From an uncultured bacterium (lineage in GTDB: Bacteria > Bacillota_I > Bacilli_A > Mycoplasmatales > Metamycoplasmataceae): a stretch of DNA of 24,648 nt. The translations under genes and the position numbers were made by a program. Below, in pieces: positions 23,212 through 24,648 of the stretch. The notes under the pieces are model-generated. The model ran no database searches. It saw only the letters and a program-made list of their open reading frames with translations, and was not told the DNA's origin. The stretch is taken from NCBI GenBank assembly GCA_929200685.1, contig CAKNAO010000001.1, positions 1,552 through 26,199 on the forward strand, read 5' to 3'. Numbering within the stretch: position 1 is the first letter of the stretch; the number at the start of each line of letters is the position of its first letter.

Positions 23212-23949
23212 TTAATTATTTTTACAATTATTTATATCTTTAATGCTTGTTATTAAATTAGCGCCTTGTTTAATTAATTCAGAATTTCCATCTTGTTTAG
23301 ATCCATCTCCAGGAAAACAATAAATTTCTTTTCCAAGATTTAAAAAATTAGTTATTAAATGATTAATTGGTCCATCTTTTAAAGATGAGAATAAAATTAA
23401 AATCTTTGCAAAAGAAGCAGTTAATCTATTTCTATCTTTGCATCTTTGTTTACTTAATTTTATTCCTTCTGGGTATTCACTTAAAAATAAACTATTTTTT
23501 TTATTTTTTATTTGAGAATGAATTTGATCTAAACCATTTGCTAAAACATAAATTGCTTTTTCATTAATTATTTTTTCAATTTCTCTATCAACCCCTTGAT
23601 AATACATTGAAATAATACAAGAAGATTTAGTTATTTCTGGAACAAATTTTTTAATTCTTTGATTTGTTTTTTGATCAACATCATTACCAGTAACACAAAT
23701 AATATTTTTTTTAAGTAAATCTATATTACCTTTATATCAAACAACAAAAGGAGGTTTATAAGCTTCTTTTAATTGTTTTGGATAATCATTATCTAAAATT
23801 GTTTTAAAATTTCATTTTTTTTCTTTAATTTTATTTTCAAGTAACTTAATTTCTTCCGGACTAACTATTTCTTTTTTTTCAAGAGCACTATATATTAAAT
23901 CTCAATCACCTTCATATTTAATTGTAAAATATAATAATATAATATTCAT
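23212..23949 (-). CDS. dprA: DNA-processing protein DprA/Smf (divergent, 245 aa)
   Basis: YFTIKYEGDWDLIY N-terminus, DNDYPKQLKEAYKPPFVVWYKGN, LSEYP, RNRL, GNSELIKQGANLI. Directly upstream of topA. SD AAGGAG. Confidence 0.88.
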
Positions 23950-24033
23950 TTCTTTCTCCTTCATATTAATAAATAGATTAAAAAATATAAACACAATAAA
24001 AAAAGACAAATATTTTACTTATATAATTTAATT

Positions 24034-24573
24034 ATGAAAACAATTTCAATATACATAGATATTAGAAAATCTAAAGAAATGGATTTAGATGAAAAAATAA
24101 AAAAATATAGAAAAATGTATACTCAATTTTCAAGTTATAAACCCCAAAGAAATAATATTAGTCATAGAACAACAAAATATGTTGGAGATGGAGTGATATT
24201 AATTTTTAATGCTAATTCTTTAGATAATGATGAAGAATTAATTTCAATTATGAAAGAAATAGATAATAAAGTAATAACTCTAGAAGATCAAAATAATATT
24301 GATATAGGAATTGGAATTTCTTATTCTCTTGCCTCTGAAGAAGGAAATGAAGATTTATTTATTTCTCCTTCAATTGATGGAGCAGCATATGGCACTAATT
24401 TAGCTAATAAATGTATAGTAAAAAATAAAAAATGAAAATGAGTTTTACCACTCAAAATTGGAGATGATGGTGATGAATCAATTAATGAATTAAAAGAAAT
24501 TATTATAGAATCTAATAAAATTGATCAACATGAATCTAATTCTGGAAAAAATTTATGATTTGAATTTTTATAA
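24034..24573 (+). CDS. Class III nucleotide (adenylate/guanylate) cyclase domain protein (179 aa under code 4)
   Basis: YIDIRKS (D9), KYVGDGVILIF (K48, D52), IDIGIGIS, TNLANK (N122, K126). Extends past the track stop through three TGA codons to TAA at 24571-24573. Confidence 0.72.
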
Positions 24574-24648
24574 AACATAATTAATATATAAATAGTTTAT
24601 AAATTAAAAAAAATTATAATAAAATAAATTTTTATTTTAATTTTATAT

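What the first reader, a model, noticed from the sequence alone, without database searches (positions are those of the whole stretch)
24034..24573. Stand-alone class III nucleotide cyclase in a mycoplasma: possible unrecognised cyclic-nucleotide signalling or defence gene
Seen: a 179-aa ORF carries both metal-binding Asp motifs (YIDIRKS D9 and GDG D52, 43 residues apart), a Lys at the base-specificity position (K48 in KYVGD), an xGIGI beta-strand, and an N-x-A-x-K pair (N122/K126). It has no TM, sensor or regulatory domain and is divergent from the conserved dprA-topA block. Known: class III cyclases use two Asp residues about 44 apart plus an N/R(K) transition-state pair. Single chains carrying all of these work as homodimers. 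Lys at this position favours ATP. Class III cyclases also act as the sensor enzyme in Pycsar anti-phage systems, next to an effector gene. Mollicutes are not generally regarded as having cAMP/CRP signalling. Inference: this is an active minimal cyclase, either an orphan messenger source or the first gene of a defence-type module whose effector lies just beyond the window edge.
Basis: partly seen in the sequence, partly recalled or inferred. Interest (0 to 1): 0.8.

Follow-up and report, generated by a model that had tools for sequence, protein, structure and literature searches.

The report
Minimal cyclase from an AbiF-linked family
This small mycoplasma gene encodes a stripped-down nucleotide cyclase of the anti-phage (Pycsar) type; its relatives almost always sit beside an RNA-neutralised AbiF toxin gene, which points to an undescribed cyclase-plus-toxin defence module, but here the contig ends before any partner can be seen.

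Summary

Profile alignments put D115 at the canonical Asn and Y119 at the canonical Arg/Lys, so the transition-state pair is not canonical. K48 is not conserved, so ATP preference is unsupported.

The family is very rare: 28 hits among 1.84 billion representatives, and sporadic in Mollicutes. In 10 of the 11 relatives with readable flanks, the gene lies next to one of the following:
- an AbiF-type HEPN RNase (Abi_2; matches PDB 8vz6);
- that RNase's upstream promoter-hairpin-terminator small RNA;
- a remnant of the RNase.

One relative has PycTM instead.

In the window itself no partner is visible. The contig ends 75 nt after the stop, that tail lacks the RNA element, and no Abi_2 is found in the 89.5%-complete assembly.

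Verdict: a Pycsar-related minimal cyclase from a probable new cyclase + ncRNA + AbiF defence module. The window copy may be orphaned, and its catalytic competence is uncertain. An earlier scan note on other DNA reports a different mini nucleotidyltransferase paired with AbiF.

The parts
24034..24573 (+). 179-aa single-domain class III cyclase-homology protein (P0001), PycC-like; stop codon included
24022..24027 (+). TATAAT box 6 nt before the ATG, with no Shine-Dalgarno sequence (leaderless-type start)
   Evidence: Read directly. The same layout precedes the AbiF genes of relatives. The consensus scan is no better than shuffles.
24058..24060 (+). codon of D9, first metal-binding Asp
   Evidence: Invariant in A1 and nearly invariant in A2. 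Aligns with the first catalytic Asp of 8jsz (PMC11224242).
24187..24189 (+). codon of D52 (GDG), second metal-binding Asp
   Evidence: Invariant in 18 family members. Aligns with the second catalytic Asp of 8jsz.
24376..24390 (+). codons D115 to Y119: the positions of the canonical Asn and Arg/Lys transition-state pair, here Asp and Tyr
   Evidence: Profile alignments to 5mbg and 7r65. D115 is invariant family-wide. Position 119 is Lys in distant members but Y/W/T/F/A in the window's clade and F in P0022.
24547..24549 (+). codon of K172 in the invariant C-terminal GKNLWF motif. By position it may be the counterpart of the triphosphate-binding Lys of class III cyclases (inference only).
   Evidence: Invariant in A1. 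The assignment rests on motif position and recalled knowledge; it was not tested.
24574..24648 (.). 75-nt AT-rich tail up to the contig end; it holds no AbiF-type small-RNA element
   Evidence: Alignment with relatives' spacers. The covariance model R1 finds nothing in the window or the genome. Every public contig and unitig carrying the gene stops inside the gene or within 75 nt after its stop.
23212..24009 (-). dprA, transcribed divergently. It marks the same variable spot where two relatives (L003, L004) carry defence genes.
   Evidence: Pfam DNA_processg_A on the identical contig. Relatives L003 and L004 hold dprA, then Fic, then the cyclase gene, then AbiF or GmrSD.

Best explanation
The ORF encodes a minimal nucleotide cyclase domain of class III, related to the PycC enzymes of Pycsar anti-phage systems. 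It has no sensor or regulatory domain.

It belongs to a rare family confined to TGA=Trp Mollicutes-type contigs. Members of this family are almost always linked, on the same strand and in either gene order, to an AbiF-type HEPN RNase. That RNase carries its own upstream promoter-hairpin-terminator small RNA, the hallmark of AbiD/F type III toxin-antitoxin systems.

The most likely working model, which is inferred and not shown, has four steps:
1. The protein forms a head-to-tail homodimer.
2. D9 and D52 bind two metal ions and an NTP.
3. On phage infection it makes a cyclic mononucleotide; which base cannot be predicted.
4. That product, or the enzyme itself, releases or activates the RNA-neutralised AbiF RNase, giving abortive infection.

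In this genome the partner cannot be seen. The copy may be orphaned, as in relative L004, where AbiF is reduced to a C-terminal stub.
For: - Fold and kinship.
- Catalytic Asp pair conserved; PMC11224242.
- Linkage to Abi_2: L002, L003, L005, L006, L029, L040 (reversed order) and L041.
- AbiF stub in L004, and both genes broken in G359.
- RNA element downstream of P0018.
- The partner is an AbiF homologue: profile E 2.3e-8 to 8vz6, and the only fold match is 8vz6, TM 0.65.
- A conserved RNA element with compensatory pairs lies upstream of every partner.
- AbiD/F systems are protein plus upstream ncRNA (PMC13064643, bioRxiv 10.1101/2025.04.15.648962, PMC12737573).
- Tree: P0001 is sister to four AbiF-linked members inside a clade with 98/96 support.
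- Accessory distribution: a strong match only in the window's own genome among 398 same-order genomes, and none in the same-genus genome.
- Defence-island neighbours in relatives: Fic, GmrSD, KAP NTPase, SNF2, methyltransferase.
Against: - The canonical Asn/Arg pair reads D115/Y119. Position 119 is unconstrained in this clade, so cyclase activity is uncertain.
- Pfam Guanylate_cyc does not hit the protein.
- AbiF has no recognisable cyclic-nucleotide-binding domain; its whole length matches plain PbAbiF.
- In the window no partner is visible, the tail lacks the RNA element, and neither Abi_2 nor the element is found in the 89.5%-complete assembly.
- dN/dS of 0.3-0.7 shows only moderate constraint.
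- All linkage evidence comes from about 11 loci, mostly short metagenomic contigs.
Confidence: 0.6

Rival explanations
1. Orphaned remnant. The window's copy has lost its AbiF partner, as L004 has. It is a left-over gene with no current role, or one on its way to decay.
For: - L004 keeps an intact cyclase gene and RNA element but only the last ~61 residues of AbiF.
- In G359 both genes are broken.
- The window's tail lacks the RNA element, and no Abi_2 is found in the genome.
- Constraint is relaxed.
Against: - The ORF is intact, with all family-invariant residues.
- The identical protein occurs in four contigs from separate samples.
- The assembly is incomplete and breaks exactly here, so absence of a partner is not shown.
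Confidence: 0.25
2. Non-catalytic accessory. The domain only binds an NTP or a phage factor. It regulates AbiF or its RNA directly, as a sensor, second antitoxin or chaperone, without making a messenger.
For: - The basic transition-state residue is lost in the whole AbiF-linked clade, yet linkage and the two Asp are retained.
- AbiF shows no cyclic-nucleotide-binding module.
Against: - More distant AbiF-linked members (P0019, P0026) keep the Lys.
- Strict conservation of both metal Asp and of D115 is what catalysis predicts.
- The nearest sister group pairs with the messenger-activated PycTM effector.
Confidence: 0.2
3. Chance neighbours. The cyclase and AbiF are two independent defence genes that merely share islands. 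On this reading the cyclase is a solitary Pycsar-type enzyme, or a housekeeping cAMP source.
For: - Defence genes do cluster at these loci.
- AbiF with its RNA is a self-sufficient system elsewhere (PMC13064643).
- An earlier scan note describes solitary Pycsar-type cyclases (unchecked).
Against: - Adjacency holds down to ~27-31% cyclase identity.
- It holds in at least five different genomic settings and in both gene orders, always on the same strand.
- No CRP-like or CNBD gene is seen beside any copy.
- The gene is missing from nearly all related genomes, which argues against housekeeping signalling.
Confidence: 0.1

Closest known systems
Pycsar cyclases (PycC), e.g. Anabaena AnPycC (PDB 8jsz) and the PycC of PDB 7r65
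   Same: - Short class III cyclase domain with the two catalytic Asp.
- Best sequence-profile matches.
- Accessory, island-borne distribution.
- A sister branch of the same family (P0021) sits beside a Pfam-confirmed PycTM effector.
- A Pfam-confirmed PycC + PycTM pair exists in a same-order genome (L010).
   Different: - The partner is an AbiF HEPN RNase with an RNA antitoxin, not a cNMP-binding TM or TIR effector.
- Asp replaces the Asn, and in the window's clade the Lys is lost.
- At 179 aa it is shorter than the solved PycCs, with no N-terminal extension or zinc finger.
Canonical class III adenylyl/guanylyl cyclase catalytic domains (Pfam PF00211; e.g. 1azs, 8sl4, 5mbg)
   Same: - Metal Asp pair about 44 residues apart.
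- GIGI strand.
   Different: - No Pfam hit.
- The Asn/Arg pair reads Asp/Tyr.
- The Lys at the base-specificity position is not conserved.
- No regulatory domains.
AbiD/AbiF type III toxin-antitoxin systems (PbAbiF-AbiFr, PDB 8vz6; C. difficile AbiF-RCd22)
   Same: In relatives, the neighbouring gene is a full-length AbiF homologue with the R-x4-H motif. It is preceded by a promoter, a structured RNA and a terminator.
   Different: - Described AbiF systems have two parts (protein and RNA) and no cyclase.
- The Rfam abiF motif RF03085 does not match the Mollicutes RNA element.
- Nothing of this system is present in the window itself.
Type III CRISPR Cas10-Csm6/Csx1 signalling and Panoptes mCpol (functional analogies only)
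   Same: A palm-domain nucleotide cyclase is coupled to a toxic effector: a HEPN RNase in Cas10-Csm6/Csx1, a membrane effector in Panoptes.
   Different: - Different cyclase family: the fold hits rank class III domains above GGDEF and polymerase palms.
- No CARF or SAVED sensor on the RNase.
- No CRISPR array.

Membership tests
Class III nucleotidyl cyclase (cyclase homology domain, Pfam PF00211) | Beta-alpha-beta-beta-alpha-beta palm core with the full cyclase-domain topology | tested here: met
   [not shown]
Class III nucleotidyl cyclase (cyclase homology domain, Pfam PF00211) | Two metal-binding Asp about 44 residues apart | tested here: met
   D9 and D52 are conserved. They align with the catalytic Asp pair of 8jsz (PMC11224242).
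Class III nucleotidyl cyclase (cyclase homology domain, Pfam PF00211) | Asn plus Arg (or Lys) transition-state pair on helix alpha-4 | tested here: not met
   The aligned positions are D115 and Y119. Asp is family-wide. Lys is present in distant members but lost in the window's clade.
Class III nucleotidyl cyclase (cyclase homology domain, Pfam PF00211) | Score above the Pfam gathering threshold | tested here: not met
   No PF00211 hit for P0001 at E<=10. The best in the family is E 0.084, in 2 of 18 members.
Class III nucleotidyl cyclase (cyclase homology domain, Pfam PF00211) | Head-to-tail dimer and NTP cyclisation | not testable with these tools
   No multimer prediction or enzymology was available.
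Pycsar | PycC-type cyclase | tested here: met
   PADLOC PycC models hit 8/8 close homologues, best E 4.4e-9; the window protein scores 1.7e-5. The profile hits 8jsz and 7r65.
Pycsar | Adjacent effector with a cNMP-binding domain fused to TM or TIR | tested here: not met
   In the window the contig ends first. In relatives of the same clade the neighbour is AbiF. Only the P0021 branch has PycTM.
Pycsar | cCMP/cUMP synthesis and phage defence | not testable with these tools
   Needs biochemistry and phage assays.
AbiD/AbiF type III toxin-antitoxin | Abi_2 HEPN protein with the R-x4-H motif | tested here: not met
   Absent from the window and not found in the assembly with PF07751 or with P0009. 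Present beside relatives.
AbiD/AbiF type III toxin-antitoxin | Cis-encoded structured ncRNA with terminator upstream of the toxin gene | tested here: not met
   No such element in window 24574-24648 or elsewhere in the genome with model R1. Present in relatives.

The most novel reading that the evidence does not exclude
A three-part anti-phage system not yet described: a minimal class III (PycC-like) cyclase, a small antitoxin RNA and an AbiF HEPN RNase. On infection, a cyclic mononucleotide made by the cyclase unlocks the RNA-neutralised toxin. This would be a CRISPR-independent counterpart of Cas10-to-Csm6 signalling, sitting on the AbiF lineage from which Cas13 is thought to derive. The window's gene would be its cyclase component.
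Probability: 0.3. Interest if true: 0.8.

Novelty: new variant of a known kind. Interest (0 to 1): 0.58.

Why it matters
If the linkage is functional, it joins two defence principles so far treated as separate. One is cyclic-nucleotide alarm signalling (Pycsar). The other is RNA-antitoxin control of a HEPN RNase (AbiF, the proposed ancestor of Cas13).

It would also give a very small, tractable pair to test how a messenger could open an RNA-locked toxin.

In addition, cyclase-based immunity occurs in minimal-genome Mollicutes. A Pfam-confirmed PycC + PycTM pair was found in a same-order genome.

For this window alone the finding is modest: one intact accessory gene of a rare family, at a contig edge.

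Tried and rejected
- Pfam and NCBIfam gave no family for P0001. The weak HEPN_Cthe2314 hit (E 0.014, 1 of 18 members) was rejected as noise.
- A PDB search with the single sequence found nothing. The family profile was needed.
- Seeing past the contig end failed:
  - All four public contigs stop within 75 nt of the stop.
  - Logan unitigs stop inside the gene or about 20 nt after the stop, and the overlaps there are short AT-rich repeats from other loci.
  - The 75-nt tail only matches AT-rich spacers elsewhere, for example beside a repeat-rich surface-protein gene on C67.
- Own-genome searches found nothing for Abi_2, P0009, a relative's holA, comEC (PF03772) or the RNA model.
- The Rfam abiF motif RF03085 was not detected in relatives.
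- There were no relatives in JGI metagenome contigs, IMG/VR or phage records. Only one GTDB representative besides the own genome carries the gene. The wide alignment was too divergent for the locus scan.
- P0009 found no match in 398 same-order genomes.
- The promoter/terminator scan was no better than shuffles.
- A link between loss of Lys119 and AbiF pairing was considered and dropped, because P0019 and P0026 keep the Lys and are AbiF-linked.
- The protein collection had no record for P0006.

Full report
**1. The observation**

The ORF at 24034-24573 (+) is open only under the Mycoplasma code. It has three TGA codons (W134, W136, W175) and gives 179 aa. A TATAAT box lies 6 nt before the ATG. 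The gene is transcribed divergently from dprA (23212-24009, -), which follows topA. The window is G000:C1:1552-26199, so the contig ends 75 nt after the stop codon.

**2. What the protein is**

Pfam, NCBIfam and a single-sequence PDB search give nothing useful. Other searches agree on a class III cyclase domain:
- PADLOC's PycC model hits at E 1.7e-5. All eight close homologues hit PycC models, best 4.4e-9.
- An AlphaFold model built on those homologues is confident: pLDDT 82, pTM 0.84, topology beta-alpha-beta-beta-alpha-beta plus a C-terminal subdomain.
- The top PDB and AlphaFold-DB matches by Foldseek are all class III adenylyl, guanylyl or uridylyl cyclase domains.
- Language-model features point the same way.
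- A family profile hits 8jsz (uridylate cyclase, 8e-5), bPAC and the PycC of 7r65.

So the fold and the Pycsar kinship are established.

**3. Active-site residues**

- D9 and D52 are conserved. They align with the Asp pair of 8jsz, which its authors identify as the catalytic metal ligands (PMC11224242).
In the alignments to bPAC (…AVNVAAR…) and 7r65 (…AANYAAK…), the canonical Asn column holds D115 and the canonical Arg/Lys column holds Y119.
- D115 is invariant in all 18 family members.
- Position 119 is Lys in distant members, but Y, W, T, F or A in the window's clade and F in P0022.
- K48 lies at the classical base-specificity position but is F or L in close homologues. PycC enzymes use other determinants.
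- Base preference therefore cannot be read off, and catalytic competence is uncertain.

**4. Distribution**

- An exhaustive profile search of 1.84 billion representatives finds only 28 proteins at E<=1e-3. About 14 of them are ~180-aa family members.
- Among 398 same-order genomes, only the window's own genome has a strong match. The same-genus genome has none.
- One further GTDB representative, a Metamycoplasmataceae MAG, carries the gene.
- Nothing turns up in JGI metagenome contigs, IMG/VR or phage records.
- It is therefore an accessory gene, not housekeeping signalling.

**5. Neighbours in relatives**

| Locus (cyclase protein) | Flanks | What lies next to the cyclase gene |
|---|---|---|
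| L002/L005 (P0002, P0003) | rpsI … gyrB | Abi_2 protein directly downstream |
| L003 (P0004) | Fic … holA | Abi_2 protein directly downstream |
| L006 (P0008) | after a membrane transporter | Abi_2 protein directly downstream |
| L029 (P0022) | – | Abi_2 protein directly downstream |
| L041 (P0026) | – | Abi_2 protein directly downstream |
| L040 (P0019) | – | Abi_2 gene 22 nt upstream (order reversed) |
| L004 (P0005) | syntenic with L003 | only the last ~61 residues of the Abi_2 gene remain |
| G359 | – | both genes broken |
| L026 (P0018) | – | the RNA element follows the gene |
| L027 (P0021) | – | a second cyclase-like gene upstream and a Pfam-confirmed PycTM downstream |

In an ML tree the window protein is sister to the four AbiF-linked proteins P0002-P0005, inside a clade with 98/96 support.

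**6. The partner**

- It is a plain AbiF. It gives Pfam Abi_2 and PADLOC AbiD hits and has an R-x4-H motif.
- Its profile matches 8vz6 at E 2.3e-8.
- Its model (pLDDT 77) matches 8vz6, 'PbAbiF dimer bound to ncRNA', and nothing else.

**7. The RNA element**

- Directly upstream of every partner gene lies the same layout: a -10 box, an AAGG-containing hairpin, a GC-richer terminator hairpin with a U run, then a second -10 box 6 nt before the ATG.
- Four close copies give 18 predicted pairs, two of them with compensatory changes.
- A covariance model built from those four copies recovers the copies in L006, L041 and L026.
- In L040 the element sits upstream of Abi_2 rather than next to the cyclase gene, so it belongs to AbiF.
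- This matches the published picture of AbiD/F as protein plus upstream ncRNA type III toxin-antitoxins (PMC13064643; bioRxiv 10.1101/2025.04.15.648962; PMC12737573).
- The Rfam abiF motif itself does not match.

**8. The window's own situation**

- The 75-nt tail holds one G and one C. It contains no such element.
- No Abi_2 gene, AbiF-like protein or RNA element is found in the 89.5%-complete, 99-contig assembly.
- All public contigs and unitigs stop inside the gene or within 75 nt after it, at AT-rich low-complexity sequence.
- Whether a partner follows is therefore unknown. L004 shows that the cyclase gene can outlast AbiF.

**9. Mechanism**

What is shown:
- a class III/PycC-like fold with a conserved metal Asp pair;
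- recurrent linkage to AbiF and its RNA;
- an accessory, island-type distribution.

What is inferred:
- homodimer formation;
- infection-triggered synthesis of a cyclic mononucleotide;
- activation of the RNA-locked RNase.

The non-canonical D115/Y119 pair and the lack of any nucleotide-sensor domain on AbiF keep a non-catalytic regulator role open.

**10. Novelty**

I found no paper that links AbiF/Abi_2 with a cyclase. Described Pycsar effectors are TM or TIR proteins. An earlier, unchecked note of this scan reports a mini CD-NTase paired with an AbiF-like RNase on other DNA. If that holds, it would suggest that AbiF is a recurrent output of small nucleotide-signalling enzymes.

I class the finding as a new variant of a known kind.

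Noticed in passing
L002:8541-8626; L003:8547-8633; L004:8548-8635; L005:618-702; L006:1636-1727; L041:764-852; L040:285-392; L029:650-746; L026:1439-1524: Conserved small-RNA-like element upstream of the AbiF genes of Mollicutes. Its layout is a -10 box, an AAGG hairpin, a terminator hairpin with a U run, and a second -10 box 6 nt before a leaderless ATG. The Rfam abiF motif does not match it, so it may be an undescribed AbiF antitoxin RNA variant.
   Followed up: partly
L004:8619-8866: Only the C-terminal ~61-80 residues of the AbiF gene survive (75% identical to P0010), behind an intact RNA element and an intact cyclase gene. GmrSD genes follow. This looks like a deletion of the toxin.
   Followed up: yes
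L007:359-1767 (G359): A cyclase-like gene split over two frames, followed by AbiF fragments. The whole module is pseudogenised and lies about 350 nt from the 3' end of a 23S rRNA gene.
   Followed up: partly
L027:1422-3286: Two cyclase-like genes in tandem (P0044, 239 aa, and P0021, 188 aa), followed by a Pfam-confirmed PycTM. This may be a heterodimeric Pycsar cyclase.
   Followed up: partly
L010:912-2013; also L008:1026-2073 and L009:883-1977: Pycsar-type pairs (short cyclase plus small membrane protein) in other genomes of the same order. For L010, Pfam confirms both genes (Guanylate_cyc 27.3 bits, PycTM 28 bits).
   Followed up: partly
L002:2296-6878; L003:1-7930; L004:352-10690: In L003 and L004 the stretch next to dprA is a variable defence island (Fic, GmrSD, a second stand-alone Abi_2, AAA_15/21 ATPase, methyltransferase with helicase). 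In L002 the cyclase gene sits in a different setting, between rpsI and gyrB, with a KAP NTPase and an SNF2 helicase gene upstream.
   Followed up: no
window 24574-24648 and G000:C67:14-85: The AT-only spacer at the contig end is about 75% similar to a spacer beside a repeat-rich surface-protein gene on contig C67. Such low-complexity spacers seem to be where assemblies of this genome break.
   Followed up: partly
G000 whole assembly: Neither comEC (PF03772) nor a homologue of the relatives' holA was found. These two genes flank the island in L003 and L004, so that region may be unassembled or organised differently here.
   Followed up: no
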